Shown here piece after piece: positions 5,354 to 32,776 of a stretch of 38,458 bases of DNA. Source of the DNA: Nakamurella lactea (GTDB lineage Bacteria; Actinomycetota; Actinomycetes; Mycobacteriales; Nakamurellaceae); the NCBI GenBank assembly GCA_044463405.1, contig JBIQML010000001.1, positions 1 through 38,458 on the forward strand. Direction: 5' to 3'. Numbering within the stretch: position 1 is the stretch's first letter; each line of letters begins with the position of its first letter. The position numbers were made by a program, and so were the translations under genes. The notes under the pieces are model-generated. The model was not told the origin of the DNA and ran no database searches. It saw nothing but the letters and a program-made list of their open reading frames with translations.

Positions 5354-5417
5354 GATGGCTCCTTCCTGCGATGGGCAGCAACCGGCTGCCCGGTGGATGC
5401 GGCCGACGGAATGCCGG

Positions 5418-9272: not shown

Positions 9273-12200
9273 GCAGGTCAGCCGGGCGTCCGCCCAGTCG
9301 CCGTGATCGTGGCCGTTGCCGTCACCGCCCTCCCCGACAACCAGATCGACCATCTGCGCGCCGCTGATGTCCACGTCCATCGGGTACGGGTCCGAGGATC
9401 CGTATAGCACCGGCGTGGTCGACAACGGCTTCCCGTCCGCGACGACGCTGAAGGTCACCGACCCGCTGTTGCCGACCTCGTCGTCGACGCCGACGGTCGC
9501 CTGGAACCGGGTGCACTGCCCGCCGAGATACAAGGCCACGTCACTGGGGGAGTTGGTGCCCAGCCCATGCGCGAACTGCTGGCCGTTCAGGGTGATGGTG
9601 CTCCCGTCGCCGGCGGCGGTCTCTCCGTTGCTCATGTCGCGCTCCACCGGGCCCCACCCGTTGCTGGCCGAGAAAAACGGCAGCGCGCTGACCTCGACAT
9701 TTCCGGTGGGTGGTGTCGGTAGCGCCCGGATGTCCCGCACGGTCGTCAGCTGCTGGGCGCCGTGCCGGCCCGGCTCACCCTGCTGGTAGTCGGCGACCAC
9801 CGCCAGCTCCGAGATCGTCGGCAGCGAGTCGGGCGCCGTCACCGTCCAGGAGGCGGTGAACGAGTGCCCGGGGGGCACCGGATGGCTGGCGCTGGTCGGT
9901 GTGGTGGGTGTCGCCGTCCAACCGTCCGGGATCGTCAGGTGCAGCCGCACGTCCCGCGCCGCGCCCGCGCCGGCGCCACTGTCGGTCGAGAACGTCGCCG
10001 ACACCGTCGCGGTGGACCCGGGGGACATCGAGCCGGGAACGTGCGCCGTGAGCGAAGCGTGGTGCGGGGCCGGCATGCGGTAGGTGGTCGCGTCGTAGCC
10101 CGGGCTCGATACCGGCGGCACCCGCAGCGACGACACCGGGGATCCGTAGCTGAACAGCGACACCGTCCCCAGTCCACCGGTGCTGCCGTCCTCGTTGGTG
10201 ACGGCGATCGCGATGGTGTTGCGCCCGTCCGGGTTCAGAATCCCGGTCGGGATCACGAACTCGTGCTGCGGGCCGATGTTGTTGATGTACTTGCCGAGTT
10301 GCCAGCCGTTGACGTAGATGAAGGCCCGGTAGGCGCGGCTGGGGTCGTCAGAGATGCGCAGTCCCACTGAGGTGTCCTGGTCCTTCGGGAGGTTCAGGTT
10401 GACGGTGGTGCGGTACCAGGAGACCCCAGGCGTGGTGTCGGTGGTGGGCAGTGTCACGTTCTGCCAGTGGTTCTCGGGGAAGCCGGGCAGCGTCCAGCCG
10501 GCCCGCTCTCCGTACAGGCCCCCGGTGTTCAGCGGGCCGCGGACCGGGTCGAGGCCCTGCTCGCCACCGCGGGTGCCCTGAATGCGCCAGGTGATGGTGG
10601 CCAGCGGCGAGCCCGCGACCGTCGCACCGGTGAGGCCGCGGGCCTCCTTGTTGGTGTTCTGGACGTTGTAGTCCTCGTTGTGCCCGGAGGTGTCTACCAG
10701 CACCGAGACCTCGTTGTCGGAATCGACATTCACGACGCCGGCCGGGAAGGCGAAGGTGTGCGTCGCGTCGTCGGAGTGGCCCAGGTAGGTGCCGTTGAGC
10801 CACACCTGGTAGTTTCCGGCCGTTCCGGTGATCGCCGACAGGGTGATGCCGGTGCTCGCCGTCGTGGCGTCGAAGTGCCCGCGGTACCACACATCGCCGT
10901 AGTGGAAGCCGTAGTCGTCCTGGAACAGCACCGGCAGGGTGACGGGGGTGGTGGTGCTGTTCGAGGTCATCTTGTCGGCGACCTGCCAACTGGAGTCGTC
11001 GAAGGCAGGCTGCGATTCCGGCGACCCCTGCATGCGCTTCCAGTGCGTCAGCGCCGGCAACTGCACCGGTTGCGGGCCGCCGATCTCGCCGAGCCGCGAT
11101 CCGCTGGGCGTGGGTGCGGTGGCGAGCCTGTTGCCGTTCCAGGTGTAGCGCGAGGCGTCCGAGGCGAAGACCTCGATCTGCTGCGCGTCGTCGGAGTCCC
11201 CGGTCAACTCCAGGGTGCCGCGCGACAGCTCCGCGGAGCGCAGCAGATCCGTTCCGTATACCAGCACCGGGCCGGCGGAATCCGCGGCCAGCCAGAACTT
11301 CTCGGCCTGCTGGTCGGTCCCGATCAGAAGCAGGAGTGGCCGGACGCCGCCGCCGGTGATCAGGACGCGCGCCAGTGCGTGGTGGGTGTAGTTGAGCCGC
11401 AGGTCGCCGGTGGCCGCGTCCCAGGTGGTGGCGATGTCGCCGGAGAGCACGTGCACGTCGGGCTTGGCGGTGTAGTTGAGCACCGTCTCACCGTCGGTAC
11501 CGTCGGCGCCGTACAGCACCGCCACGTCCCGATCGCCGATGGTCTGGTTGGTCAGGATCTCGGAGGTGGAGTACTGCATCCGGGTCTGGCCGAGCAGGTA
11601 GTTGGCCACGATGATCGCGGAGTCCCGGCCGTTCAGGGTGATCGAGGTTCCGGGCTGCTGCGGAACGCTCGGATACACCCTGGCCGATCCGCTGGGCAGG
11701 TCGATGGCGTCCAGCGAGACGAACGTGCCGGCGGAGGCCGGGTTGCGTTGGCCGGTGACGACGATCTTCAGGGTGTGCGCGGTGTCGGGGAGGCCGCTGG
11801 CGGTGTACTGCACCTGACCGTTCACGGTGCCCGACGAGTAGCCGTCGACCGAGGCGACCTTGTTGCCGTCCAGGTAGACGTCGGCGATGCCGTGGTTGGC
11901 GGCCGTGGAAGCGATCCAACGGATGGCGGTTCCGGTGAAGGGGATTGTCACGCTGTCGCCGGCGGTGTCGGAGAACGACTCGGTCTGCTGGTACTCGCCG
12001 TGCGTGTAGCTCTGCTCGGGGCCGACGTGCGACCAGTTCCCCTCGTAGTGCAGGTCGGTGGTGTCGGCATCGTCGTAGGTGTAGGTGGAACTGGCGCCGA
12101 GATCGATCGAGATGTGCGTGGAGTCCGTGGACGTGGCGGTGGAGTCCCGGTGCCGCAGCACGTGGAACTGGGTGTGCGTGTCCGGGTTGATCCGGGCGGT

Positions 12201-13493
12201 GTCCACGATGGCGTCATCGGGCGGGGCGCCGACTCCGAGCGCGTCGGTCTTGGTCAGTGGCGCGACGGCGTGGGTGAAGTAGCCGATCAGCTTGTCCTGC
12301 TGATACTTCGCCGTCAGTTGCCGGGCCTCGGTGATCGGTGCGCCGTAGTCGTAGGAGGTGTAGACGGCGGGCTCGGCCTGGTTCCCCCAGTTCGTGCCGC
12401 CGTAGGTCATGTAGAAACTCTGCATGGTGGCGCCGACGGCGATGTTGTTCTTGTAGAACACATTGGCGAAGTCAGCACCGGTGAGTTGCCGGCACTTGTC
12501 GTAGCCGGGGCCGCCCCATGGGTCGAAGGCACCGCCCTGGTACTCCGGGGTGTAGAGCGGGCTTTCGTTCGGGTGGTCGTAGGAGATGTTGTCCACCGGA
12601 CGCCATTGTGTCGGATTCGAGCAGTTGAACCCCTGCGGGTACGAGTCGGGTCCGTCGATGTCCAGCGCTGCCCGCCCCGAGTTGAAGGTGCCGTTGTTGT
12701 TCCCGGTCAGCGGCACGGTGATGCCGTCGGAGCGAACCTTGGTCTCCAGCTTCTCCATGTAGTCACGGCCGGCGGTGGAGCCGTCGTAGTACTCGTTCTC
12801 CACCTGGTAGGCGATGATCGGCCCGGTGCCGTTGGTCATCTGGTGGCGGGCCAGGATCGCGTCGATGTGCGTGAGCCACTGGTTCGCGTAGGTCAGGTAG
12901 TCGGGATCGGCGCTGCGGTCCAGGCCGGGCTTGGTGCCCAGCCAGGCGGGGAAGCCGCCGCCGTCCACCTCGGCGTTGATGTACGGGCCGGGCCGGGCGA
13001 TCACGTACAGGCCGACCTGGTCGGCGATGTCCAGCAGCGTGTCGACGTCCCGGACGCCGGTGAAGTCGTACACGCCGGGTGCCGGGGAGTGGTAGGCCCA
13101 GTCGAAGTAGATGGAGACGCCGTTGAACCCGGCGGCCTTCATCTTTTGCAGCACGTCACGCCACAGGCCGGGGCTGGGCAGCCGGAAGTAGTGGAACTCG
13201 CCGGAGTAGATGTACGTGCGCTTGCCGTCGATCTTCAGCGAGTACTGGTCGTAGGAGATCGTGTGCGGGACACCGCCGCTCAGGGTGCGGGCGGCCGGAT
13301 CTGCCGCCGGTGACGCCGTGTGTGCCGTCGTGGCCGCAGTGGCGGTGACGGGGGTTGCCGACGCACCCGCGTTCGGCGCCGCCAGCGAACTCATGCCGAG
13401 GGTGACGGCCAGAGCGGTGAGACCCGCGGCCACCCGGCGGGGGCCCGACCGGTTCCGGGAGCGGCGGACGGCGGCGGATGTGGTGAACGGCAT
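9264..13493 (-). CDS. Secreted GH35 beta-galactosidase with an internal carbohydrate-binding-like domain and C-terminal NEW3 + NPCBM domains
   Basis: YSGEFHYFRLPSP, ARPGPYINAE, YQVENEY (acid/base), TPEYQGG (nucleophile), YTSYDYGAPI; C-terminal NGWGPVERD..HGLGTN..DHGDWADA. Signal peptide; GGGGAG RBS before ATG 13493. Confidence 0.92.
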   Translation of the reverse strand: MPFTTSAAVRRSRNRSGPRRVAAGLTALAVTLGMSSLAAPNAGASATPVTATAATTAHTASPAADPAARTLSGGVPHTISYDQYSLKIDGKRTYIYSGEFHYFRLPSPGLWRDVLQKMKAAGFNGVSIYFDWAYHSPAPGVYDFTGVRDVDTLLDIADQVGLYVIARPGPYINAEVDGGGFPAWLGTKPGLDRSADPDYLTYANQWLTHIDAILARHQMTNGTGPIIAYQVENEYYDGSTAGRDYMEKLETKVRSDGITVPLTGNNNGTFNSGRAALDIDGPDSYPQGFNCSNPTQWRPVDNISYDHPNESPLYTPEYQGGAFDPWGGPGYDKCRQLTGADFANVFYKNNIAVGATMQSFYMTYGGTNWGNQAEPAVYTSYDYGAPITEARQLTAKYQQDKLIGYFTHAVAPLTKTDALGVGAPPDDAIVDTARINPDTHTQFHVLRHRDSTATSTDSTHISIDLGASSTYTYDDADTTDLHYEGNWSHVGPEQSYTHGEYQQTESFSDTAGDSVTIPFTGTAIRWIASTAANHGIADVYLDGNKVASVDGYSSGTVNGQVQYTASGLPDTAHTLKIVVTGQRNPASAGTFVSLDAIDLPSGSARVYPSVPQQPGTSITLNGRDSAIIVANYLLGQTRMQYSTSEILTNQTIGDRDVAVLYGADGTDGETVLNYTAKPDVHVLSGDIATTWDAATGDLRLNYTHHALARVLITGGGVRPLLLLIGTDQQAEKFWLAADSAGPVLVYGTDLLRSAELSRGTLELTGDSDDAQQIEVFASDASRYTWNGNRLATAPTPSGSRLGEIGGPQPVQLPALTHWKRMQGSPESQPAFDDSSWQVADKMTSNSTTTPVTLPVLFQDDYGFHYGDVWYRGHFDATTASTGITLSAITGTAGNYQVWLNGTYLGHSDDATHTFAFPAGVVNVDSDNEVSVLVDTSGHNEDYNVQNTNKEARGLTGATVAGSPLATITWRIQGTRGGEQGLDPVRGPLNTGGLYGERAGWTLPGFPENHWQNVTLPTTDTTPGVSWYRTTVNLNLPKDQDTSVGLRISDDPSRAYRAFIYVNGWQLGKYINNIGPQHEFVIPTGILNPDGRNTIAIAVTNEDGSTGGLGTVSLFSYGSPVSSLRVPPVSSPGYDATTYRMPAPHHASLTAHVPGSMSPGSTATVSATFSTDSGAGAGAARDVRLHLTIPDGWTATPTTPTSASHPVPPGHSFTASWTVTAPDSLPTISELAVVADYQQGEPGRHGAQQLTTVRDIRALPTPPTGNVEVSALPFFSASNGWGPVERDMSNGETAAGDGSTITLNGQQFAHGLGTNSPSDVALYLGGQCTRFQATVGVDDEVGNSGSVTFSVVADGKPLSTTPVLYGSSDPYPMDVDISGAQMVDLVVGEGGDGNGHDHGDWADARLTCSS

Positions 13494-13520
13494 GAACAAT
13501 CACTCCCCAGCGGATGTGCC

Positions 13521-13549
13521 GTGATGGTGATGGCGGTGATGGTGATGGC
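13521..13549. repeat. Tandem direct repeat GTGATGGTGATGGC x2 (15-bp period) between the GH35 genes
   Basis: Identical 14-mers at 13521-13534 and 13536-13549. Confidence 0.8.
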
Positions 13550-13581
13550 AGTGCAGGCGGCAGCGGGAATGCCGGCGCGCG

Positions 13582-16500
13582 TTACGGACAGATCACCTGC
13601 GCGCCCCCCCAGTCCCCGTTGTCGTGTCCCACGCCGTCGCCGGCGTCACCGACGACCAGGGTCAGCGTGGACACGCCGGTGACGTCGGCGGACATTTGCT
13701 GCGGCGGATCCCCGCCGCGCATCACTCCGGTCTGTGCGAGAACGGTCCCGTCGCCGAGCACCTGGAACGTCACCGATCCCTTGCCGCCGGCGCTCAGATC
13801 CAGCCCGACGTCGCTGGAGAACGAGGTGCACTTGCCGGCCAGGTCGACCTCCACCGTGCTCACCGCGTTGGTGCCCAGGCCCTTGGCGTAGGCCGTGCCG
13901 TCGATGTTCAGCGGTGCTCCGTCCCCCTCGCCGGTGCCCTCGACGTTCTGGTCGCGCTCCACCGGACCCCAGCCGTTGGTGGAGGAGATCCACGGCATGT
14001 CGCTGATGTAGACCAGGCCGTGCGCCCGCACCGACACCGATCCCGACGCGCCGGTGCTTAGATCCCGCCCGTCCTGGTGGTAGCCGGCCAGGATCGCCAC
14101 CGGGTACCGGCCGCCGGCGGCGTCGGTGGGCATCGTCACCGTCCAACTCACCGCCGCGGTGCCTTCCGGGGCCAGCGTGGCCGGTGCCGGTTGCACGGCG
14201 GCGGCGGTCCAGCCGTCCGGAACGTCCAGCGTCGCCTGCAGATCGGTGGCGATCGGCCCGGCGTCGTTGCGGATGGTGCTGGCCACGGTGAAGGTGTCCC
14301 CGCCGCTGAGCTGGTCGGCTCCGGTGAACGCCGGCGGGTCCACGGCCACGTCCAGCATCGGTTGCGAGGCGCCCCAGTCGGCGAGATCCCAGCCGGGGGC
14401 GTCGTTCTGCGCGACCGTGACGCCTCCGCGCACGGTGCCCAGGTCGACGAGCCGCACGTTCTCCAGGCCGTTGCCGGCACCGCCGTCGCTGGTGACCTCG
14501 ATGGCCAGGCGGTTGTTGCCGTCGGGGTTCAGGATCCCGGTAGGCAGCACGAAGGTGTGCTGCGGGCCGACGTCGGCGATGTACTGGCCGACGTTCCAGC
14601 CGTTGAGGTAGATCAGCGCCCGGTAGTTGGCGCTGGACTGCCGAACCGAGGGGTCGCCGATCGTCAGGCCGATGGAGGCGTCGTCGGCCCTGGGCAGGTG
14701 CAGCCGGAAATCGGTGGCGTACCAGCTGGTCCCGGGGACGGCCGCGGCGGCGGGCGCCGGCACCGTGGCCGTCGACCATCGGGACGTCGGGTAGCCGGGC
14801 AGGTACCAGCCGTGCCGGTCCCCGTAGCTGCCGTTGGCGTTCATGATGCCGCGCGCCGTGTCGACCAGGTCCTCGCCGCCCTTGTTGCCCTGGATGCGCC
14901 AGGTGACCTGCGGTGTCTCGGCGTCACCGGCGCCGTCGGCCATGGTCATCGAGATCAGGCCCCGGCCTTCCTTCTGCGCGTCGTTGACGCCGCCGTCCTC
15001 GTTGTGCCCGTCGTTGCGGACCATCACGGCCAGCACGTGCGGTCCGGCAGTGCGAAGTGACTGCGGCACGGCGAATTCCACCGTGCCGGTGGTGGCCGGG
15101 GACGACTGCCCGGTGGCCAGCACGTCCTGCCCGAGGTACACGCCGTCCAGCCACGCCTGCAGCATGCCGGCGCCACCGCCGCCGTAGTGCAGCGTGATGC
15201 TGGCCGGGGACGCGCCCGCATAGTGGGCCCGGTACCACACGTCACCCTGGTGGAATCCGTAGTCATCCGCGGTGAGTACCACGGCACCGTCCGGTGGCGG
15301 GGTGGTGCTGTTGGTGGAGGTCCTGTCGGCTACCGGCCAACCGGAATCGTCGAAGGACGATTGGGACTCCGGCGAGCCGAACTGCGTCTTCCACGTCACC
15401 GCCGACGCGGGGCCGCTCAACTCGGGCAGGCTGATGCCGACCGGGCCGGGCAACCGGCGTTGCGCGGTCAGGCTCTGGTCGGCGACGGTGCGGGCGGCGG
15501 CGACGTGCCCGCCGTTCCACTTCAGGTGCTTGATCCGGGACGGTGCCCACACCTGCAGGTCCGAGGGCTGGGAGGTGTCGCCCGTCAGGAACAGGTTGAC
15601 TCCGTGCACCGTCGCGCTGCGGACCAGTTCGGGGCCGCGAACCAGCACCGGTCCGGCGGAAGTCTGCGGCTGCCAGAAGGTTCCGGCGGTGTCGGTGTCG
15701 GCCACCAGCAGGGTCAACGGTTCGCGGCCGCCTCCGGTGATACGCACCTCAGCGAGGCCGTCGTGCGTGTAGTTCAGTCGCAGGTCGCCGGTGGCGGCAT
15801 CGTAGGAGGTGTCGACCGAGCCCCCGGCGACCTGCACATGCGGGTTTGTCGGGTAACGCAGCACGGTCTCGCCGTCCTCGCCGTTCGGCCCGTAGAGCAG
15901 CGCCAGATGACCGCCCGTGACGTCCAGGTGCGTCATGATCTGCGAGGTCGAGTACACCAGGTGCGGGCTCGCGGTCCCGGCCGCCGGGTCCAAGTTGTAG
16001 TCGGCGACCAGGATCTTCGAGTCCTGGCCGTCGATCCGCAGGGTGCCCTGCTGTGGCACGGTGTAGCTGCCGTCGGCCGTGTCGATCGGGAACGTGAACG
16101 TGTCGTTCCCGGTCTCGTTGGACGGATCGTGCATGGCGATGTAGAAGTGCGTGCCGGTGTCCGGGTTCACGTCATCGTAGATCTTGATCTTGTCAGTGCT
16201 GGGCGCGATCATCGACGCGGGGTCGACCTTGGTCAGCGGCGCTACGGACTGCACGAACAGTCCGAGTTCCTTCATGGTGGTGGCCTTGGGGCGGATCTGC
16301 CGCGCCTCGCTGATGGCGGCGCCGTAGTCGTAGGAGGTGTAGACGACGGGGGCGGGCAGCCATCCCCACGATGTGCCACCGAATCCCATGTACACGTTGT
16401 GGATGTCGAGCCGGTTGGCGATGTCGGTGCCGTAGGTGACGCGTTCGTATCCGGAGCCCTCCTGCAACGCCATGCACGGGTAGCTGCCAGGGCCGCCCCA

Positions 16501-17568
16501 GTAGTCGAACCATCCGCCGCCGCGCTCGGCGACGAAACCGGGCGTGTTCGGTGAGGCCGATGCGCCGCCGTGCGCTCCGCCCGGACCCCAGATGCCCCAG
16601 TCCGGGGCGACGGTCGGGGAACCGGGGGTGTTGTTGCTATGGCAGGAGCCGCCGCCATAGCCGTCGAACGCGTACAGGTCGGTGGGTCCGGGCACCGTTC
16701 CCGGCACATCGGAACCGGAGGGTACCCAGATGCCGTTGCGGCCCTTGTCGTTGTGGAAGATCGGCACGGTGATGCCATCCGAGCGGACCTTGTCGTACAG
16801 GTGCTGCATGTAGCGCTGCTGGCTGCTGCCGGTGGAGGCCAACTCGTTCTCGATCTGGTAGAGGATGACCGGTCCGGATCCGTCGGTGTACTGGTGGCGG
16901 GCGAGGATGGCGTCGATGTGCGTGAGCCATTCGTCGGCGGCGGCCAGATAGTCGGGCGCGTCGCTTCGGGCGCGTCCCGCTTGCGTGGTCAACCAGCCCG
17001 GGAAACCTCCACCGTTGGTCTCTCCGTTGATGTACGGGCCCGGCCGGGCGATCACGTACAGGCCGACCTGGTCGGCGATATCCAGCAGCCTGTTCACGTC
17101 GCGGACGCCGGTGAAGTCGTAGACGCCGGGCGCGGGGGAGTGATAGGCCCAGTCGAAGTAGATCGACACGGCGTTGAAGCCCTCCGCCTTCATCTTCTGC
17201 AGCACGTCGCGCCACAGATCTGGGCTGGGCAGCCGGAAGTAGTGGAACTCTCCGGACCAGATGTAGGTGCGGTGGCCGTCGATCGTCAGCGAATACTTGT
17301 CGAAGCCGATGGTGTGCCGGTGGCCGTCCCCGAGCATGGGCCCTTGCCCGTCCGGTGAGGATGGGGCGGCCGCGGGCGACGACGACGCAGTGGGCGCGCT
17401 TACGGGTGACGAGAAAGCCGCCGAGCCGGTCGCCGGTGACGGGGACTCCGCGGCCCCGGCCGTTCCACCCAGTGAGGTCATGCCGAGCGCGAGGACCACG
17501 GCCGACAGGGCCGCGATGGTGCGGCGGTGCAGCGGGCGATGGACGGACCGGGTTCCGATCAAGGGCAT
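13582..17568 (-). CDS. Secreted GH35 beta-galactosidase paralogue with C-terminal NEW3 + NPCBM domains
   Basis: WSGEFHYFRLPSP, ARPGPYINGE, YQIENEL, FVAERGGGWFD, YTSYDYGAAI; NGWGPVERD..KGLGTN..HDNGDWG. Signal peptide plus Ser/Pro linker; GAAGG before ATG 17568. Confidence 0.92.
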   Translation of the reverse strand: MPLIGTRSVHRPLHRRTIAALSAVVLALGMTSLGGTAGAAESPSPATGSAAFSSPVSAPTASSSPAAAPSSPDGQGPMLGDGHRHTIGFDKYSLTIDGHRTYIWSGEFHYFRLPSPDLWRDVLQKMKAEGFNAVSIYFDWAYHSPAPGVYDFTGVRDVNRLLDIADQVGLYVIARPGPYINGETNGGGFPGWLTTQAGRARSDAPDYLAAADEWLTHIDAILARHQYTDGSGPVILYQIENELASTGSSQQRYMQHLYDKVRSDGITVPIFHNDKGRNGIWVPSGSDVPGTVPGPTDLYAFDGYGGGSCHSNNTPGSPTVAPDWGIWGPGGAHGGASASPNTPGFVAERGGGWFDYWGGPGSYPCMALQEGSGYERVTYGTDIANRLDIHNVYMGFGGTSWGWLPAPVVYTSYDYGAAISEARQIRPKATTMKELGLFVQSVAPLTKVDPASMIAPSTDKIKIYDDVNPDTGTHFYIAMHDPSNETGNDTFTFPIDTADGSYTVPQQGTLRIDGQDSKILVADYNLDPAAGTASPHLVYSTSQIMTHLDVTGGHLALLYGPNGEDGETVLRYPTNPHVQVAGGSVDTSYDAATGDLRLNYTHDGLAEVRITGGGREPLTLLVADTDTAGTFWQPQTSAGPVLVRGPELVRSATVHGVNLFLTGDTSQPSDLQVWAPSRIKHLKWNGGHVAAARTVADQSLTAQRRLPGPVGISLPELSGPASAVTWKTQFGSPESQSSFDDSGWPVADRTSTNSTTPPPDGAVVLTADDYGFHQGDVWYRAHYAGASPASITLHYGGGGAGMLQAWLDGVYLGQDVLATGQSSPATTGTVEFAVPQSLRTAGPHVLAVMVRNDGHNEDGGVNDAQKEGRGLISMTMADGAGDAETPQVTWRIQGNKGGEDLVDTARGIMNANGSYGDRHGWYLPGYPTSRWSTATVPAPAAAAVPGTSWYATDFRLHLPRADDASIGLTIGDPSVRQSSANYRALIYLNGWNVGQYIADVGPQHTFVLPTGILNPDGNNRLAIEVTSDGGAGNGLENVRLVDLGTVRGGVTVAQNDAPGWDLADWGASQPMLDVAVDPPAFTGADQLSGGDTFTVASTIRNDAGPIATDLQATLDVPDGWTAAAVQPAPATLAPEGTAAVSWTVTMPTDAAGGRYPVAILAGYHQDGRDLSTGASGSVSVRAHGLVYISDMPWISSTNGWGPVERDQNVEGTGEGDGAPLNIDGTAYAKGLGTNAVSTVEVDLAGKCTSFSSDVGLDLSAGGKGSVTFQVLGDGTVLAQTGVMRGGDPPQQMSADVTGVSTLTLVVGDAGDGVGHDNGDWGGAQVICP

Positions 17569-25257: not shown

Positions 25258-25914
25258 TCACATCGCCGGGCTGCTCTCCAGGTATGCCAGCACCGCCAGC
25301 ACGCGCCGGTTGTCGTCCTCGTGCTGCTCCAGCCCGAGCTTGGTGAAGATCGAGTTGGTGTGCTTGCCCACGGCCTTCTCGGTGATGAACATGGTCGCGG
25401 CGATCGCCGCGTTGGACCGGCCCTCGGCCATGTGGCCCAGCACTTCTCGTTCCCGCGGGGTCAGCGACGCCACCGGCGAGGACTCCTTGTGCTTGGTGAG
25501 CAGCTGGCTGATCACCTCCGGATCCATGGCGGTCCCGCCGGCCGCCACCCGCCTGATCGCGTCCACGAACTGCGCCACGTCCGACACCCGGTCCTTGAGC
25601 AGGTAGCCGACGCCGCCGGTGCCCTGGCTGAGCAGCTCGCGGGCGTAGAGCTGCTCCACGTACTGGCTGAGCACCAGCACCGGAAGGCCGGGGATCTGCT
25701 CGCGGGCCGCCAGCGCCGCCCGCAGCCCCTCGTCGGTGAAGGTGGGCGGAAGGCGCACGTCGACCACGGCGACGTCGGGCCGGTGGGTCGTCAGCGCCCG
25801 CTGCAGCGACGGGCCGTTGTCCACGGCCTCCACCACGTCGAACTGGTAGGCCTCCAGCAACCGGATCAGCCCGTCGCGCAGCAGCGCCAGGTCCTCCGCC
25901 AGCACCACCCGCAC
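25258..25914 (-). CDS. NarL/LuxR family response regulator
   Basis: MRVVLAED, PDVAVVDVRLPP, VLSQY, GYLLKDRV, LTPREREVLGHMAEGRSN HTH. GGGAGG RBS. Confidence 0.95.
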   Translation of the reverse strand: MRVVLAEDLALLRDGLIRLLEAYQFDVVEAVDNGPSLQRALTTHRPDVAVVDVRLPPTFTDEGLRAALAAREQIPGLPVLVLSQYVEQLYARELLSQGTGGVGYLLKDRVSDVAQFVDAIRRVAAGGTAMDPEVISQLLTKHKESSPVASLTPREREVLGHMAEGRSNAAIAATMFITEKAVGKHTNSIFTKLGLEQHEDDNRRVLAVLAYLESSPAM

Positions 25915-26112
25915 GTCGCTCGCCTCCCGTGAGCCTGCGCTACGGCCGTTTCGTCGCCCCGGACTCTATCGCCGCCGCTCGTGTCCGGGGCGGCCGCCGT
26001 CCCGCAGAATGATCTACCTGGGGGGCGACGCCCGGCGCCCGGATCGGACTGCAGGAGCGTCCGACTGCGGCGCTACCCTCTAAGTCACCTTTCGAGATGG
26101 AGGACGATTCTC

Positions 26113-27453
26113 ATGGCAGAGACGAGGACCGGATCATCCCGCCGGCGTGCGACCGCGGTCCGCCTGCGGGTGCTGTCGGCTGTCGCCGTGGGCGGCCTGG
26201 TGCTGGCGGCCTGCGGCAGCGCGCCGTCCGCTGGATCGGGCAGCGCCTCGTCGTCTGGTTCCTCCGCCAGCTCGGCAGGCACGTCGGGCAGTGCCCCCGG
26301 GAGCGCCAGCAGCGCCTCGGGAACCTCTGGCAGTGCTTCCAGCGCCTCCAGCGCCTCCAGCGCCTCCAGCGCCGGCGGGAGCGGATCCAGCGCGTCCAGC
26401 GCCGGATCGGCCAGCGGCGCCTCCAGCGGCAGCGGTTCGGCCTCCGAGGGGTCCGCGGCGAGCGGGCCGGCAGTGTCCGGGTTCGGCAACGCCTGCATGG
26501 TGACCGACACCGGCGGCATCGACGACCGCTCGTTCAACGCCGCCAGCTGGAAGGGCGTGCAGGACGCGACCAAGGCGCTGGGCATCAAGTCACAGCTGCT
26601 GCAGTCGCAGTCCGAGAGCGACTACGTCCCCAACATCAACACGTTCGTGCAGGGCGACTGCGGCCTGATCATCACGGTGGGCGCGCTGATGTCCGACGCG
26701 ACCGAGAAGGCCGCCAAGAAGTACCCGGACCAGGACTTCGCCATCGTCGACGTCACCTATCCCAAGACCATCCCCAACGTCCGGGGGCTGGCCTTCGACA
26801 CCTCGCAGTCCGCGTTCCTGGCCGGGTATCTGGCGGCCGGCATGACCAAGTCCGGCAAGGTGGCCGAGTTCGGCGGGCTGCCCATCCCGCCGGTGGAGCT
26901 GTACATGGACGGCTTCGCCTACGGCGTGCAGCACTACAACGAGAAGCACCAGACGAAGGTGCAGGTGCTCGGGTGGAACACCAAGACGCACCAGGGTCTG
27001 TTCGCGGGCGGCTTCACCGACACCGCCAAGGGTCAGCAGATCACCGAACAGCTGATGAGCCAGGGCGCGGACATCATCTTCCCGCTGGCCGGGAACGTGA
27101 ACAACGGCGCGGTATCGGCGGTCGCGCAGTCCGGCAAGGGCAAGGTATTCGTCATCTGGGCCGACACCGACGGCTGCGTCAACGACAAGGCACACTGCGA
27201 CCTGTTCATCACCAGCACCGAGAAGCACATCGCCGTCGCCGTGGAGGACGCCATCACCCAGGCCGGGCACGGCAACTTCCAGGCCGGCAACTACGTCGGC
27301 ACGCTGGCCAACGACGGGGTGGGCCTGGCCCCCTACCACCAGTTCGCGGACAAGGTGCCGGCCGGCCTGCAGAAGGAGATCACCGACCTGAAGCAGCAGA
27401 TCATCGACGGCAAGATCACCATCTCGTCCGAGTTCAAACCGCAGACCGGATGA
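26113..27453 (+). CDS. BMP family (PnrA/TmpC-like) nucleoside-binding lipoprotein with Ser/Gly/Ala linker
   Basis: Lipobox LAA-C; VTDTGGIDDRSFN, AFLAGYLAAGMTKSGKV, GADIIFPLAG, IWADTD, GTLANDGVGLAPYH. GGAGG RBS. Confidence 0.92.
   Translation: MAETRTGSSRRRATAVRLRVLSAVAVGGLVLAACGSAPSAGSGSASSSGSSASSAGTSGSAPGSASSASGTSGSASSASSASSASSAGGSGSSASSAGSASGASSGSGSASEGSAASGPAVSGFGNACMVTDTGGIDDRSFNAASWKGVQDATKALGIKSQLLQSQSESDYVPNINTFVQGDCGLIITVGALMSDATEKAAKKYPDQDFAIVDVTYPKTIPNVRGLAFDTSQSAFLAGYLAAGMTKSGKVAEFGGLPIPPVELYMDGFAYGVQHYNEKHQTKVQVLGWNTKTHQGLFAGGFTDTAKGQQITEQLMSQGADIIFPLAGNVNNGAVSAVAQSGKGKVFVIWADTDGCVNDKAHCDLFITSTEKHIAVAVEDAITQAGHGNFQAGNYVGTLANDGVGLAPYHQFADKVPAGLQKEITDLKQQIIDGKITISSEFKPQTG
26338..26373 (+). 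repeat. Perfect 9-bp tandem repeat (TCCAGCGCC)x4 encoding (SSA)4 in the BMP linker
   Basis: Read directly from the sequence. Confidence 0.85.
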
Positions 27454-28724
27454 TGACGGGGATCGACGACACGCTCGCCGACGAGGGGGAACGCCGGATC
27501 GTCTGGGCGGCACGGCATTCCCCGGTGATGCACTCGCTGGTCACCGACCGGCTGGCGGACGGGGCACTGACCGGGCGACGGCTGGCCGTGGTCGTGCACC
27601 TGGAGGCCAAGACCGCGCACCTGGCCGCCCTGCTCGCCGAGGCCGGCGCGGACGTGGTGGTCGCCGGCAGCAACCCCGCCACCACGGACGACGCCGTGTG
27701 CGCCGCGCTGCGCCGCCGGGGCCTGCCGGTGCACGGCCGGCACGGCGCCGACCCGGCGGAGTTCGAGCGGGACCTGTTGGCGGCGGCGGACTTCCAGCCG
27801 GAACTGATCATCGATGACGGGGCCGAGCTGACCAGCCGCATCGAACGGCACCGGCCGGACCTGTTCGACGCGCTGGCCGGCGTCAGCGAGCAGACCACCA
27901 CCGGCGTGGCCCGGCTGCGCGCGCTCGCCGAACGGCATCCGTTGCCGTTCGGGGCCATCGCCGCCAACGACGCCCGCTGCAAGCACCTGTTCGACAACCG
28001 TTACGGCACCGGGCAGACCGCCCTGTCGGCGGTGCTGCGGTTGACCAACCTGCTGGCCTCCGGCCGGCGCTGGTGCGTCGTCGGCTACGGCTGGGTCGGC
28101 AAGGGCCTGGCCCGCTACGCCGAGGGCGCCGGGGGCAGGGTCACCGTGGTGGAGACCGACCCGGTCGCGGCCCTGGAGGCGCACATGGACGGCCACGACG
28201 TGGCGTCGCTGGCCGGCGCGCTGCCGGACGCCGACGTGGTGATCACCGCGACCGGGGGCGCCGGCGCGGTGCGCACCGAGCACCTGCCGCTGGTCAAGGA
28301 CGGCGCCCTGCTGGCCAACGCCGGGCACGACGACCAGGAGATCGACGTCGCCGGGTTGCAGCGCCTGGCCGAGTCCGTGGAGCAGGCCCGCGAGGGCGTG
28401 ACGCGGTACGTGCTGCCGGGCGGGCGGCGGCTGCACCTGCTGGTGGGCGGCTCCCTGGTGAACATCGCCGGCGCGCGCGGACACCCGATCGAGATCATGG
28501 ACCTGTCGTTCGCTGTGCAGGCCACCGCGATCCACCACCTGGCCTCCGGCGGGATGCCGCCCGGGCTGCACGCGTTCCCGGCGGAACTGGACGCGGCGAT
28601 CGCCCGGACCAAGCTGACCTCGCTGGGCATCGACATCGAGCCCAGCACGGCCGCCGCGCACGTCCGTGCCGCCGTCAGCGAGGCCGGAGCAGCCGAGGCC
28701 GGAGCGTCGGGGGATGCGTCATGA
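27450..28724 (+). CDS. ahcY: Adenosylhomocysteinase (SAH/SIH hydrolase) family, paralogue 1
   Basis: VHLEAKT, IIDDGAE, SEQTTTG, NDARCKHLFDNRYGTG, GYGWVGKG, NAGHD, GHPIEIMDLSF. ATGA overlap with the BMP stop. Confidence 0.88.
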   Translation: MMTGIDDTLADEGERRIVWAARHSPVMHSLVTDRLADGALTGRRLAVVVHLEAKTAHLAALLAEAGADVVVAGSNPATTDDAVCAALRRRGLPVHGRHGADPAEFERDLLAAADFQPELIIDDGAELTSRIERHRPDLFDALAGVSEQTTTGVARLRALAERHPLPFGAIAANDARCKHLFDNRYGTGQTALSAVLRLTNLLASGRRWCVVGYGWVGKGLARYAEGAGGRVTVVETDPVAALEAHMDGHDVASLAGALPDADVVITATGGAGAVRTEHLPLVKDGALLANAGHDDQEIDVAGLQRLAESVEQAREGVTRYVLPGGRRLHLLVGGSLVNIAGARGHPIEIMDLSFAVQATAIHHLASGGMPPGLHAFPAELDAAIARTKLTSLGIDIEPSTAAAHVRAAVSEAGAAEAGASGDAS

Positions 28725-29965
28725 GCGGCCCATCCACCACCGCAGGTGCTGATGCCGGCGGCCTTCGCATCGACTGGGCCGCGAGCTGGGCCCCGGTGCT
28801 CACCGGCGTCGGCGACGACCTGGCCGCGGACGGCAGCGTCCGGGGACGCCGGGTGGCGATCGTGCTGCCCATCGAGCCCAAGACGGCCTACCTGGCGGTG
28901 ACGCTGGCCCGGGCCGGCGCGGACGTCACCGTGACGTCCCCCGGTGCGCTGGTGGACGGCGACGTCGCCGCCGCCCTGGCCGCGCGGGGTGTGCGGGTGC
29001 TGGCGCGGCCGGACAGCACGCCCGACCAGCAACGGGAGTTCTACGGGCAGGTGCTGGACTCCCACCCCGAGGCGATCGTCGACGATCGCGCCGACCTGAT
29101 CCGGATGGCGCACACCACCCACACCCACGCCCTGGACCACCTGCTGGGCGCCGCGGAGGAGACCACCTCCGGGGTCAGCACCCTGCGCGCGATGCACGCC
29201 GACGGGGCGCTGCGGGTGCCGTGCCTGGCCGTCAACGACGCCCGCTGCAAGCACCTGTTCGACAACCATTACGGCTCCGGCCAATCGGTGCTGGCGGCGA
29301 TCGCCGACAACACCAACATGCTGATCGCCGGAGCCCGCCTGGTGATCGTCGGCTACGGGTGGGTCGGCAAGGGCCTGGCACGCCGCGCCCGCGGGATGGG
29401 TGCGCGGATCACCGTCTGCGAGATCGATCCGTTCGCCGCGCTGCAGGCACACCACGACGGATTCGGCGTGGCACGGCTGGCCGATGCGGCGGCGAGCGCC
29501 GACCTGGTGATCACCACCAGCGGCTGCCCGGCCACCCTGGCCGGGGACGTCCTGGACGCGCTGCCGGACGGCGCGGTGATCGCCAACGCCAGCGGCATCG
29601 ACGACGAGATCGACATGGCCGACCTGACGGCCAGGGCCACCGCCACCCGGGAGGTGCAGCCGCAGGTCGTGGAGTACCGCATGCCCAGCGGCCGGTCGAT
29701 CTTCGTGATCGGCGACGGCGTGGTGGTCAACCTGTCCGCCGGCGAGGGCCACCCGGTGGAGATCATGGACGTCACCTTCGCCGCGCAGGCGCTGGCCGTG
29801 CGGCACCTGCTCACCCGGGGCCGCGACCTGTCGCCGGGGCTGCAGCCGCTGCCGGAACGGATCGACCGGGACGTCGCGGTGCGCGCGGTCGCAGCGCTCG
29901 GGCTGGACCTGGACGCCGTCACCGACCACCAGCGCGAGCTGATGGCCGCGTGGAGTGGCCGGTGA
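28721..29965 (+). CDS. Adenosylhomocysteinase-like protein, divergent paralogue 2
   Basis: LPIEPKT, IVDDRAD, EETTSG, NDARCKHLFDNHYGSG, GYGWVGKG, GHPVEIMDVTF. ATGA overlap with paralogue 1. Confidence 0.85.
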   Translation: MSGPSTTAGADAGGLRIDWAASWAPVLTGVGDDLAADGSVRGRRVAIVLPIEPKTAYLAVTLARAGADVTVTSPGALVDGDVAAALAARGVRVLARPDSTPDQQREFYGQVLDSHPEAIVDDRADLIRMAHTTHTHALDHLLGAAEETTSGVSTLRAMHADGALRVPCLAVNDARCKHLFDNHYGSGQSVLAAIADNTNMLIAGARLVIVGYGWVGKGLARRARGMGARITVCEIDPFAALQAHHDGFGVARLADAAASADLVITTSGCPATLAGDVLDALPDGAVIANASGIDDEIDMADLTARATATREVQPQVVEYRMPSGRSIFVIGDGVVVNLSAGEGHPVEIMDVTFAAQALAVRHLLTRGRDLSPGLQPLPERIDRDVAVRAVAALGLDLDAVTDHQRELMAAWSGR

Positions 29966-31356
29966 CGGGAGCTCGGGCGGGCCAGCCGGTGACGGGAGAC
30001 CTGGCAGACCCAGCGGTGACGGGCCCACCGGCCGGCGCCGGATCGGGCGGGGGTGTCCGCTACCGGGCGGACGCCGTGGTCACCGTCACCGACCGGGTGC
30101 GCGTGCACCGACCCGGGGTGGTCGATGTGGTCGACGGCCGGGTGGTGACCGCCGGTACGCCGCACCCGGGCTCCGCACCCCCGGGTCCGGAGCGGCGGCT
30201 GTCCGGCCTGCTGATGCCCGGCATGATCAACACCCACGCGCACGGGCCGATGACGCTGTTCCGCGGTGCTGCGGAGGACGTGCCGCTGTCCGCGTTCCTC
30301 ACCGAGGTGCTCTGGCCGCGGGAGGCGCACCTGTCCGATGAGGACGTGTACTGGGGCATGACGCTGGCCTGCGCCGAGATGCTGCGCAGCGGCGTGACCA
30401 CCTCGTGCGAGATGTACTACTTCGAGCAGGGCCTGCTGCACGCCGTGCGGGACTCCCGCACCCGCTGCCTGATCACCCCCGGCGTGGTGGACATCCCGGA
30501 GTGGACCCACCTGGGCAGCTGGCAGCAGCGGCTGACCGCCGTCGCGGACTTCGCCGATGCCAACGCCGTTGTCGACCCGCGGGTGCAGGTCGGGTTTGCC
30601 GCGCACAGCGCGTACGCGCTGCCGCTGGAGGCGCTCGAGCAGACTGCCGCCGCGGCCCGGGAGCGCGACGCGCTGCTGCACATTCACGTCGCCGAAACCC
30701 GGGAGGAGGGCGCCGATCTGGAGCGCGAGCACGGCCGGACGGTGCCGGCGCTGCTGGCGGACCGCGGTGTGCTGGAAGGTCGGGTGCTGGCCGCGCACGG
30801 CGTGCACCTGACCGACGCGGATATCGCGCTGTTCGCCGAGCACGACGTGGCGGTGGCGCACTGCCCGGGCAGCAACGCCAAGCTCGCCGCCGGCACCGCC
30901 CGGCTGACCGACCTGATGGCGGCCGGGATCCGCGTGGGTCTGGGCACGGACGGGCCTGCCTCGCACAACGACCTGAGCCTGTGGCACGAGGTGCGGCTGG
31001 CGCCGCTGCTGGCCAGGCTGCGTTCCGGTGCGGCGTCCACCATCTCGGCCGCGCAGTCCGTCGAGCTGGCCACCGCCGGCGGTGCCCGGGCACTCGGCTA
31101 CGCCGATCTGGGCACCCTCGCGCCGGGTAGCTGGGCCGACATGCTCCTCGTCGACACCGACGATCTCGCCTTCGGCCCGGTGCTGTCGGACACCGACGTG
31201 CTGGCACACCTGGTGTGGGCCTGCACCGACCGGCAGGTCCGCGCGGTATGGGTGGCCGGCGAGCAGGTGGTCGCCGACGGGGCCTGCGTCACCGTGGACG
31301 TCGATCGGGCACGGGCCGAGGTGCAGAACAGAGCCGCAGCGCTGGCCGCTCGCTGA
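29962..31356 (+). CDS. Amidohydrolase, MtaD/DadD-like (SAH/MTA/5'-deoxyadenosine deaminase family)
   Basis: PGMINTHAH, LWPRE, SGVTT..EMY, HSAYA, HIHVAET, AAHGVHL, HCPGSNAKL, GLGTDGPASHN. GTGA overlap with paralogue 2; alternative GTGs at 29989 and 30016. Confidence 0.85.
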   Translation: MTGARAGQPVTGDLADPAVTGPPAGAGSGGGVRYRADAVVTVTDRVRVHRPGVVDVVDGRVVTAGTPHPGSAPPGPERRLSGLLMPGMINTHAHGPMTLFRGAAEDVPLSAFLTEVLWPREAHLSDEDVYWGMTLACAEMLRSGVTTSCEMYYFEQGLLHAVRDSRTRCLITPGVVDIPEWTHLGSWQQRLTAVADFADANAVVDPRVQVGFAAHSAYALPLEALEQTAAAARERDALLHIHVAETREEGADLEREHGRTVPALLADRGVLEGRVLAAHGVHLTDADIALFAEHDVAVAHCPGSNAKLAAGTARLTDLMAAGIRVGLGTDGPASHNDLSLWHEVRLAPLLARLRSGAASTISAAQSVELATAGGARALGYADLGTLAPGSWADMLLVDTDDLAFGPVLSDTDVLAHLVWACTDRQVRAVWVAGEQVVADGACVTVDVDRARAEVQNRAAALAAR

Positions 31357-31387
31357 GCGATGACCCGGCCGACCCGGCGGCGGGGAG

Positions 31388-32776
31388 TCAGGCCGTGGCC
31401 GGGTCGAGTTCGCACGGCACGGTGATCGTCACGATCGTGGGGCCGCCGGTGGGGCTGGCCACCGAGACCGATCCGTCGAACGCGGCCATGCGCCGTTCGA
31501 TGCCCGCCAGCCCGCCGCCCGGGGTGATCTGCGCCCCGCCGACGCCGTCGTCGCCGACCAGCGCGGTGAGCGCGATCCCGTCGTGCCGGAGCCACACCCA
31601 GGTGTGCCGGGCCCCGGCGTACTTCGCGGAGTTGGTCAGCGCCTCGGCCACCGCGAAGTACACCGCCGACTCCACCGGCTCGGGCGCCCGGCCGGACAGC
31701 ACCACGTCGGTCTCGACATCCCGCGGGTGCGCCAACGCCAGTGCCTCGATGCCGCCGGTCAGGCCACGGTCGGCCAGCACCGGGGGATGGATGCCGCGTA
31801 CCAGCGACCGCAGGTCGGCCAGGGCGCTGCGGGAGGACGTGCGAGCCTCGGCGATCAGCGCCGCGGCGGCCTGCGGGTCCCGCGTCACCAGCTCCTCGGC
31901 CAGGCCCAGGTTCATGCCGAGGGCGACCAGCTGTGCCTGCGCACCGTCGTGCAGATCGCGCTCGATCCGGCGCAGCTCGGCGGCCGAATGGTCCACCGAT
32001 TCGGACCGGGACTCCTCCAGCTGCCCGATCCGTTGCTGCAACGCCTGCTCGCCGGACGGGCCGATGATGGCGCGGGTGGTGGACGCCCAGATCCGCAGCA
32101 ACATCGGCGAGAGCCAGTAGCCGATCGGAAAGATGAAGAACGCGATGAGCGCGGACAGGCTGATGGCAAAGCCGAGGCTGATCGCGAAGAACAGGTAGGC
32201 CACGTCGCGCCAGCGCGCCGGGTCTGTCAACGTGGTGTGCAGCCGGATGAAGATCCCGCCGGACGGGGGGCGCCGGTAGGTGGTCCGGATGCGCTCGCCG
32301 AGGATCCGGCCGGCCACGGTGCGGTAGGTGCCCGTCACGCCGCGCATCACACCGGCCGTCGCCAGCCACAGCACCAGCCCGACCCAGGCCACGGCAGAGG
32401 CCACCGAGCCGATGAGCAGGCCGATGGTGAACCAGGCCGGGATGACCAGGAATACCAGCGTCCACGAGATCAGGAAGAGCTGGGGCCGGCCGGCCGGGCG
32501 GCGGCGTCGCGGCGCACCGGATGAATCGGGCGCGTCGGCACCCAACCGGTCGGGTGTCCGATATTCGCTGCTGGCCTCCGGTGCTGCACCGGTCGGGTAG
32601 GGCGGGGAGGGCGGGTACAGCGCCGTCGTCGGATACGACGCCGCGGTGCGGGACGCCTGCTGGTCCGGTGGCGGTGCCTCGACCGGCCAGCCGGGCATGG
32701 TGGGCGCGTCGGGGCCGTACGGCTCGTCGTGCCGCGCGGCATACGCCGGAGGGCCGGCAGGTCGGGGTGCGCTCAC
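31388..32776 (-). CDS. NarL-class (HisKA_3) membrane sensor histidine kinase
   Basis: TM segments, ELRRIERDLHDGAQ, GIHPPVLADRGL, AEALTNSAKY, DDGVGGA..GGGLAG, SPTGGPT. CACAAT just upstream of GTG 32776 suggests a leaderless start. Confidence 0.92.
   Translation of the reverse strand: MSAPRPAGPPAYAARHDEPYGPDAPTMPGWPVEAPPPDQQASRTAASYPTTALYPPSPPYPTGAAPEASSEYRTPDRLGADAPDSSGAPRRRRPAGRPQLFLISWTLVFLVIPAWFTIGLLIGSVASAVAWVGLVLWLATAGVMRGVTGTYRTVAGRILGERIRTTYRRPPSGGIFIRLHTTLTDPARWRDVAYLFFAISLGFAISLSALIAFFIFPIGYWLSPMLLRIWASTTRAIIGPSGEQALQQRIGQLEESRSESVDHSAAELRRIERDLHDGAQAQLVALGMNLGLAEELVTRDPQAAAALIAEARTSSRSALADLRSLVRGIHPPVLADRGLTGGIEALALAHPRDVETDVVLSGRAPEPVESAVYFAVAEALTNSAKYAGARHTWVWLRHDGIALTALVGDDGVGGAQITPGGGLAGIERRMAAFDGSVSVASPTGGPTIVTITVPCELDPATA

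What the first reader, a model, noticed from the sequence alone, without database searches (positions are those of the whole stretch)
26113..31356. Coupled operon: nucleoside-binding lipoprotein + two SAH-hydrolase paralogues + MtaD-type deaminase
Seen: four genes joined by ATGA/ATGA/GTGA overlaps. Known: BMP proteins bind purine nucleosides. MtaD/DadD amidohydrolases deaminate SAH/MTA/5'-dA, and in Methanocaldococcus SAH is deaminated to S-inosylhomocysteine (SIH) before hydrolysis. Both hydrolases carry the HxExKT-type (archaeal/Thermotoga-like) signature and short C-terminus, not the HxTxQ form typical of actinobacterial SahH. Inference: this is not housekeeping methyl-cycle recycling but a pathway to capture and break down an external 5'-modified nucleoside (SAH, SIH, MTA, or a nucleoside natural product) via deamination.
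Basis: partly seen in the sequence, partly recalled or inferred. Interest (0 to 1): 0.85.

Follow-up and report, generated by a model that had tools for sequence, protein, structure and literature searches.

The report
Nucleoside-scavenging cassette with histidine-less hydrolase
Four overlapping genes, inserted as one block, encode a nucleoside-binding lipoprotein, a deaminase and two old sister copies of the enzyme SAH hydrolase, one of which has lost both catalytic histidines yet is conserved in many bacteria and likely performs a different, untested reaction on scavenged nucleosides.

Summary
The four genes and their overlaps are real. The 5.5-kb block separates a sensor kinase from its response regulator, adjacent in 5 of 5 congeners, and 0 of 76 congeners carry it. 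The genome has a separate canonical sahH. Hydrolase B has Pro for His55 and no gate His301, in 119 of 119 close homologues, while keeping NAD-binding and 3'-oxidation residues. A and B are ancient sister clades. A-B is tandem in 9 of 9 non-Rubrobacter loci; the deaminase orthologue follows in 5, a BMP adjoins in 4 (0 of 91 ordinary hydrolase loci). That deaminase lacks the arginine position kept beside ordinary SIH hydrolases. B also occurs fused to A, fused to a deaminase, alone behind an ECF importer, and as the annotated AhcY of Bifidobacterium and Actinomyces. Best reading (0.35): imported MTA or 5'-deoxyadenosine is deaminated and B releases hypoxanthine by NAD-dependent oxidation-elimination; non-housekeeping scavenging overall about 0.75. 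No activity is shown. The scan found the histidine-less pair before on other DNA (four notes); no paper describing it was found.

The parts
25915..31387 (.). Inserted block lying between a sensor kinase gene and its response regulator gene
   Evidence: Orthologous kinase and regulator overlap or lie within about 35 bases in 5 of 5 congeners examined; no B- or A-type gene in 76 congeners
26113..27453 (+). BMP/PnrA-family lipoprotein (lipobox LAAC, Ser/Ala/Gly-rich repeat linker), likely nucleoside-binding; no cognate permease in the block
   Evidence: Pfam PF02608 E 8e-52; PnrA/TmpC structures; 59% identical to the BMP of the complete ABC operon on C64 beside cdd, deoA, add
27450..28724 (+). 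Hydrolase A: HxExK-type SAH/SIH hydrolase relative with His55, Asp131, Lys186, Asp190, His301; this copy has Gln156 and an altered tail
28721..29965 (+). Hydrolase B: histidine-less sister (Pro55, Gly301, DDR, changed SNP loop) keeping ExK, Asp131, Glu156, Lys186, Asp190, Asn191 and GxGxxG
   Evidence: model pLDDT 89.5, TM 0.93 to 3X2F; tree
29962..31356 (+). MtaD-like metal-dependent adenine-nucleoside deaminase relative with Pro at the Tm0936 Arg136 position
25258..25914 (-). Response regulator (host gene, left flank)
   Evidence: Pfam; congeners
31388..32545 (-). Sensor histidine kinase (host gene, right flank)
   Evidence: Pfam; congeners

Best explanation
The block is an inserted four-gene cassette, separate from the host's own sahH, that likely scavenges adenine nucleosides with a small 5' group (methylthioadenosine or 5'-deoxyadenosine): the lipoprotein would bind them, the deaminase would turn them into the hypoxanthine forms, and the histidine-less subunit B, probably assembled with A, would release hypoxanthine. 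Steps: (1) uptake, inferred, through the host's BMP-type ABC permeases on C64 since none is in the block; (2) deamination, inferred from intact metal and ribose-binding motifs; (3) B binds the hypoxanthine nucleoside through its ExK motif, NAD+ and Lys186 oxidise C3'; with no His55/His301 to act at C5', the 3'-keto intermediate would eliminate the base across C1'-C2', add water and be re-reduced, as GH4-type glycosidases do (mechanism recalled); (4) A, where intact, would hydrolyse SIH/SAH and also serve as oligomer partner; in this genome A may be mainly structural. Shown: genes, motifs, clades, neighbours, insertion. Inferred: every substrate and reaction.
For: B substitutions are fixed, not decay: Pro55 and Arg of DDR in 119 of 119 best homologues, no His301 in any, Asp131/Lys186/Asp190/Asn191 in 119, Glu156 in 118; among 49 distant representatives with non-His xxEPK, Lys186/Asp190/Asn191 49, Asp131 47, Glu156 47, His301 0 of 46 aligned (group defined by the motif itself). 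One His-less clade (support 0.97) sister to one A clade (0.96). His55 acts at Hcy elimination and binds the 5'-OH, Lys/Asp/Glu act in 3'-oxidation and 2'/3'-OH binding (PMC13406329 sections 2 and 5.3); Lys of ExK binds O6 of inosine (PMC10978960); free base was a side product in all SAHH assays (PMC10978960). B persists without an intact A in the same chain: behind a QueT-type ECF importer in 8 of 12 family-f36 loci; with a short N-terminal remnant resembling the start of an AHCY NAD domain in Actinomyces/Bifidobacterium/Micrococcales proteins (weak HMM scores, best 13-18 bits against 6-9 in 370 shuffles); fused to a second deaminase family (P0300, P0366). Matched change in the deaminase: Pro in 5 of 5 cassette copies, Arg in 13 of 15 controls. 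Importer linkage: BMP within 3 kb in 4 of 9 tandem loci, 0 of 66 HxExK and 0 of 25 HxTxE loci (34 of these 91 with full flanks); NZ_CP084754.1 has LacI, A, B', ABC importer, amidohydrolase, nucleoside hydrolase. A-B' fusion P0257, 8 members. Complex prediction weak support: 0.52, best control 0.00; mark reached by 116 of 157 solved and 2 of 215 mismatched pairs, but at 0.60 or under by 18 solved and both mismatches; runs agree in at least 94% of contacts, partner pLDDT at least 90; may be memory of solved homo-oligomers. MTA and 5'-deoxyadenosine can be growth substrates (PMC10986504).
Against: No activity, ligand or expression data. The residues kept in B serve ribose binding as well as catalysis, so a non-catalytic binder fits too. 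A keeps the SNPxST loop (Ser 120, Asn 120, Thr 120 of 120), recalled as the homocysteine site, which points to SAH/SIH. A second Arg (residue 190) is invariant in 5 deaminases and may replace Tm0936 Arg148 (alignment ambiguous). No deaminase orthologue in 5 of 5 family-f36 genomes tested, 4 of which carry B, nor in G849, nor beside L033. A nucleoside hydrolase in the NZ_CP084754.1 operon would partly duplicate a base-releasing B. The DDR arginine is not universal (4 of 49 representatives). The host already has an MTAP-like phosphorylase on C102. Whether Actinomyces/Bifidobacterium genomes hold a separate A gene could not be checked (searches gave no loci).
Confidence: 0.35

Rival explanations
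1. A is the only catalyst, an SIH hydrolase fed by the deaminase with imported SAH/SIH; B is a non-catalytic, nucleoside- and NAD-binding partner that tunes or stabilises A (like eukaryotic AHCYL1/2, recalled).
For: A family keeps all catalytic residues and the SNPxST loop; A-B tandem in 9 of 9 non-f36 loci; 44 of 48 f36 genomes with a B-level match also have a second hydrolase match, the other 4 being 51-79% complete (includes unpublished G1117, G1162, G1165, G1166); fusion P0257.
Against: Window A has Gln156 and a lost tail while B is family-typical; A works without B in complete G101; B is fused to a deaminase and has only a remnant of A in many actinomycete proteins; deaminase lacks Arg136.
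Confidence: 0.25
2. B (with A) is a sugar epimerase: 3'-oxidation and re-reduction convert arabino- or xylo-inosine into inosine, so the cassette eats or detoxifies Ara-A-type nucleoside natural products.
For: Same retained redox residues; a downstream ribonucleoside hydrolase in NZ_CP084754.1 would then have a normal substrate; two SAH-hydrolase genes sit in the Ara-A/pentostatin cluster (PMC12648386); an epimerase role for that pair is recalled, not verified.
Confidence: 0.15
3. Both subunits cleave or form 5'-thioethers, specialised by direction or thiol as reported for PenG/PenD; B uses Asp131 or water in place of the histidines, for example to convert methylthioinosine to inosine and methanethiol.
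For: PenG forward, PenD reverse (PMC12648386); B's loop at the thiol channel is hydrophobic (FQGxMV consensus); Asp131 kept.
Against: In AgmF, H56A and H299A abolish 5' elimination chemistry (PMC8599513); His55 protonates the leaving sulfur.
Confidence: 0.1
4. The block is a spare SAH-detoxification module or a decaying acquisition with no special pathway in this genome.
For: A-type is the only complete hydrolase in f36 genomes; window A carries rare substitutions; absent from 76 congeners; no RNA evidence.
Against: All four frames open with host-like GC3; B invariant residues all kept; BMP recruited separately here and in family f77; related strains carry the block in public runs.
Confidence: 0.1

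Closest known systems
DadD/MtaD deaminase plus HxExK SIH hydrolase route (M. jannaschii, T. maritima, P. furiosus; PMC10978960)
   Same: MtaD-like deaminase beside an HxExK-type hydrolase, short C-terminus, about 40-45% identity to 3X2E/7R37.
   Different: Known route is housekeeping with one homotetrameric hydrolase; here a separate sahH exists, there are two sister subunits, one lacks His55/His301, the deaminase lacks Arg136, and a binding lipoprotein is attached.
PenD/PenG SAH-hydrolase pair of the pentostatin/Ara-A cluster (PMC12648386)
   Same: Two SAH-hydrolase homologues in one nucleoside locus.
   Different: Biosynthetic context; sequences not available here, so relationship to A/B untested; no synthase genes in this block.
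AgmF angustmycin dehydratase (PMC8599513)
   Same: SAH-hydrolase scaffold with bound NAD+ re-used for another nucleoside reaction.
   Different: AgmF needs His56 and His299, exactly the residues B lacks; AgmF is a single biosynthetic enzyme.
Bifidobacterial AhcY, NCBIfam NF004009
   Same: P0393 (Bifidobacterium amazonense) scores 735 against cut-off 485 and falls in the His-less B clade.
   Different: Named adenosylhomocysteinase from sequence only; the passages read report no assay (PMC7817509, PMC8660834); carries an N-terminal remnant instead of a tandem A.
GH4/GH109 NAD+-dependent glycosidases (recalled, no call)
   Same: Proposed chemistry: C3 oxidation, elimination of the aglycone, hydration, re-reduction.
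   Different: Unrelated sequence family and substrates; a works-like comparison only.

Membership tests
SAH/SIH hydrolase, hydrolase A | Family profile above curated cut-off | tested here: met
   NF004005 483.9 bits against 275; below TIGR00936 cut-off
SAH/SIH hydrolase, hydrolase A | His55, Asp131, Lys186, Asp190, Asn191, gate His, GxGxxG | tested here: met
SAH/SIH hydrolase, hydrolase A | Glu156 (2'-OH binding) and His-Phe gate Phe | tested here: not met
   Window copy has Gln156 (119 of 120 homologues have Glu) and Asp at the Phe position (family mostly His)
SIH-preferring subgroup, hydrolase A | HxExK fingerprint | tested here: met
   HLEAK; fingerprint from PMC10978960
SAH/SIH hydrolase, hydrolase B | Fold and family profile | tested here: met
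   NF004005 465.8 bits; TM 0.93 to 3X2F
SAH/SIH hydrolase, hydrolase B | Catalytic His55 | tested here: not met
   Pro in window and 119 of 119 homologues
SAH/SIH hydrolase, hydrolase B | GHF gate (His301-Phe302) | tested here: not met
   Gly/Ala-Ile/Val in 119 of 119
SAH/SIH hydrolase, hydrolase B | NAD-binding motif and 3'-oxidation residues | tested here: met
   GxGxxG, Glu243, Lys186, Asp190, Asn191, Glu156, Asp131
SAH/SIH hydrolase, A and B | Reversible SAH or SIH cleavage; homotetramer | not testable with these tools
   No assay; A+B prediction only weak
MtaD/DadD SAH-MTA deaminase | Metal ligands and catalytic motifs (HxH, WPxE, HxxY, HxxET, GTD..N) | tested here: met
MtaD/DadD SAH-MTA deaminase | Arg136 of Tm0936 (homocysteine carboxylate binding, role recalled) | tested here: not met
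   Pro173 in window and 4 of 4 orthologues
MtaD/DadD SAH-MTA deaminase | Arg148 of Tm0936 | tested here: inconclusive
   Aligns to Trp187; invariant Arg190 lies three residues on
MtaD/DadD SAH-MTA deaminase | Curated equivalog cut-off | tested here: not met
   Best NF006549 319 against 540; NF012037 186 against 779
BMP/PnrA nucleoside-binding lipoprotein | Bmp domain and lipobox | tested here: met
   PF02608; LAAC at residues 31-34
BMP/PnrA nucleoside-binding lipoprotein | Cognate ABC permease and ATPase genes in the operon | tested here: not met
   None in the block; complete sets on C64 and C197
BMP/PnrA nucleoside-binding lipoprotein | Purine nucleoside ligand | not testable with these tools
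   Ala replaces a Phe found in the 5 closest compared BMPs (VGF motif)
AgmF-type dehydratase (hydrolase B) | His56 and His299 | tested here: not met
PenD/PenG-type pair | Orthology to PenD and PenG | not testable with these tools
   No sequence returned by any search

The most novel reading that the evidence does not exclude
The histidine-less B clade is a new NAD+-dependent nucleoside-remodelling enzyme built on the SAH-hydrolase scaffold (base release or sugar epimerisation through a 3'-keto intermediate), spread from soil Actinomycetota, Dormibacterota and a proteobacterium to the gene called ahcY in Bifidobacterium and Actinomyces, and defines an undescribed import-deaminate-cleave route for SAM by-products; those AhcY annotations would be wrong.
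Probability: 0.45. Interest if true: 0.82.

Novelty: new variant of a known kind. Interest (0 to 1): 0.64.

Why it matters
SAH hydrolase is treated as a uniform homo-oligomer with invariant catalytic histidines. A conserved sister clade without them, paired with or fused to a normal copy or a deaminase and tied to three kinds of importer, implies either a two-subunit form or a new reaction. It would add a route by which soil and gut bacteria feed on other cells' methylation waste, and it questions the AhcY step written into bifidobacterial metabolic models. The test is cheap: two small soluble proteins and an HPLC panel.

Tried and rejected
Family f35 had no B (0 of 21). Class searches with P0300 and P0423 gave no B' locus: one search returned only the amidohydrolase half, in futalosine (mqnC) loci; one search found 0 of 301 with no positive control, so it shows nothing. 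Viral contigs gave no B. No RNA holder listed. No sigma-70 promoter and no terminator above chance; no target-site repeat marked the insertion; GC profile flat. Paper searches for an epimerase pair or a heteromeric bacterial hydrolase found nothing relevant. The tandem sahH pairs in other members of the order are a different thing (canonical HxTxQ plus HxTxE, both with histidines) and were not counted. A regex mislabelled four ordinary hydrolases as B in the first tree; one search prints the motifs. Tail loss in A by frameshift: no other frame restores the Trp tail. Rejected: B as a pseudogene; recent duplication (A/B 44% identical, separate clades). Supplements of the papers were not opened; the alignment supplements of PMC10978960 could bear on the homocysteine-contact residues that I give from recall.


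Full report
Observation. The four ORFs and their ATGA/ATGA/GTGA overlaps are in the sequence at the stated coordinates, with GC3 0.91-0.95, and contigs of public runs bridge each junction. Gene 1 is a Bmp lipoprotein. Genes 2 and 3 (A, B) exceed the NF004005 cut-off and are closest to the P. furiosus and T. maritima structures; they are 44% identical. Gene 4 is closest to MtaD-type structures but below every curated cut-off. Residue numbers below are the human ones, recalled, mapped by motif.

B is a conserved histidine-less relative. In the 119 best homologues (of 1639 found) His55 is Pro in 119, His301 is Gly or Ala in 119, DDG is DDR in 119 and the SNP loop is replaced, while Glu and Lys of the fingerprint, Asp131, Lys186, Asp190, Asn191 and His353 are invariant and Glu156 is kept in 118. 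The model has the hydrolase fold (pLDDT 89.5; TM 0.93 to 3X2F). Among the 150 best 50%-cluster representatives, 49 aligned domains have a non-His xxEPK motif; these keep Lys186/Asp190/Asn191 in 49, Asp131 and Glu156 in 47, and have no His301 in the 46 aligned there (grouped by the motif, so it is not an unbiased sample). A 73-sequence FastTree places all His-less sequences in one clade (0.97), sister (0.97) to one A clade (0.96), inside the HxExK hydrolases (a first tree, agrees). The B clade holds the window copy, Gaiellaceae, Acidimicrobiales and Dormibacter records, R. radiotolerans and a plasmid labelled Roseateles, and proteins of Rarobacter, Actinomyces, Bifidobacterium and Alloscardovia named adenosylhomocysteinase.

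A. The 120 best homologues (of 5019) keep His55, Asp131, Lys186, Asp190, His301 and the SNPxST loop; the gate Phe is mostly His. The window copy is unusual: Gln156 (1 of 120), Asp85 (0 of 120) and no tail Trp (8 of 120). The Gln codon is confirmed by an identical contig.

Host context. A canonical sahH half sits at the end of contig C354 and a full BMP ABC operon with cdd, deoA and add on C64. None of 76 congeners has an A- or B-level match. The kinase and regulator that flank the block are adjacent in 5 of 5 congeners tested, two with the same outer neighbours, so the block entered as a unit. Its BMP is 59% identical to the C64 BMP and 32-35% to BMPs of other cassettes: it was recruited separately.

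Synteny. B was found in 6 of 351 genomes of family f77. All 6 have A directly before B; the deaminase orthologue follows in 5; a BMP adjoins in 4, convergent or divergent; 5 of 5 tested have a third, HxTxE housekeeping hydrolase. With L033, L035 and L193 the tandem holds in 9 of 9 non-f36 loci; BMP, A, B and deaminase all occur in 3; none repeats the window's co-transcribed order. Controls: BMP within 3 kb in 0 of 66 HxExK and 0 of 25 HxTxE loci, of which 27 and 7 had full flanks; a deaminase lies by 15 of 66 HxExK loci. Those control deaminases (plus L209) keep the Arg of Tm0936 position 136 in 13 of 15 aligned, the cassette ones have Pro in 5 of 5; that this Arg binds the homocysteine carboxylate is recalled. 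NZ_CP084754.1 carries LacI, A, B', a sugar-type ABC importer, a second deaminase family and a nucleoside hydrolase. In family f36, 48 of 104 genomes have a B-level match, 44 of them a second hydrolase match (motifs checked in 15 loci; four of the 48 are unpublished genomes G1117, G1162, G1165, G1166). There B is unlinked from A, follows a QueT-type ECF importer in 8 of 12 loci read (Pfam run on 4), A is the only complete hydrolase, and no deaminase orthologue was found in 5 genomes: this counts against a universal deaminase link. The named R. radiotolerans record may duplicate one of these loci and is not counted apart. Fusions: A-B' (P0257, 8 members), B'-amidohydrolase (P0300, P0366), and many B' proteins with a weak N-terminal remnant of an AHCY NAD domain.

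Mechanism. By the published mechanism Lys and NAD+ oxidise C3', Asp takes the C4' proton, and His55 protonates the leaving sulfur and binds the 5'-OH (PMC13406329, sections 2 and 5.3 read); HxExK enzymes prefer SIH and the Lys contacts O6 (PMC10978960, parts 1-4 of 8 read); AgmF loses activity without either His (PMC8599513, passages). B therefore keeps purine, ribose and redox machinery but not 5' chemistry, and the neighbouring deaminase has lost a homocysteine-side residue. I infer a hypoxanthine nucleoside with a small 5' group, and base release through the 3'-keto form, a side reaction seen in all assays of PMC10978960. I put this at 0.35, a non-catalytic B at 0.25, an epimerase at 0.15, direction-specialised thioether chemistry at 0.10 and a spare or decaying module at 0.10. 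Non-housekeeping nucleoside scavenging as the umbrella is about 0.75. The A+B prediction is weak support only (0.52, best control 0.00) and may reflect solved homo-oligomers.

Known and new. It works like the DadD plus SIH-hydrolase route extended by uptake, but B fails two defining features of the hydrolase family and the deaminase fails one of MtaD. PenD/PenG is a precedent for a pair (PMC12648386, passages); my recollection that such a pair is an adenosine 2'-epimerase was not verified, and PMC13696763 (passages) calls that pathway uncharacterised. Bifidobacterial ahcY is described from annotation only in the passages read (PMC7817509, PMC8660834). Other papers seen as passages: PMC11188666, PMC10986504, PMC5676521. 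Searches of the open-access library showed no paper on a histidine-less bacterial clade; subscription papers are not covered. Four earlier notes of this scan report the same pair on other DNA; they agree but are not independent support.

Verdict: real, new variant of a known kind, interest 0.64; most novel reading 0.45 likely, 0.82 if true.

Noticed in passing
L159-L162, L014-L024, L194: Many other actinomycetes carry a different tandem: canonical HxTxQ sahH next to a short HxTxE-type copy, both with histidines, often after a MerR-like gene.
   Followed up: partly
P0300, P0366; L200-L204: The amidohydrolase fused to B' is 45-50% identical to one lying beside mqnC in futalosine loci, so likely an aminofutalosine-deaminase relative.
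   Followed up: partly
P0258, P0276: Two other double-length hydrolase fusions with strongly altered motifs, outside the A/B pattern.
   Followed up: no
L151:6730-7536: An MTA/MTI phosphorylase-like gene lies directly before B in one f36 genome.
   Followed up: no
L145, L146, L149, L152, L153: In f36, B or its ECF genes often follow a TIGR03842 F420 oxidoreductase and NCS1 permease genes.
   Followed up: no
window 9264-17337: Two tandem very large GH35 beta-galactosidase genes with NPCBM domains.
   Followed up: no
window 4526-6806: ComA (phosphosulfolactate synthase) family gene after an MmgE/PrpD gene.
   Followed up: no
window 26200-26480: The BMP linker is built of 9-base repeats and varies by in-frame indels among related strains.
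   Followed up: partly
window 25258-25914 and 31388-32545: The insertion uncouples a two-component pair; the regulator keeps its own GGAGG site.
   Followed up: partly
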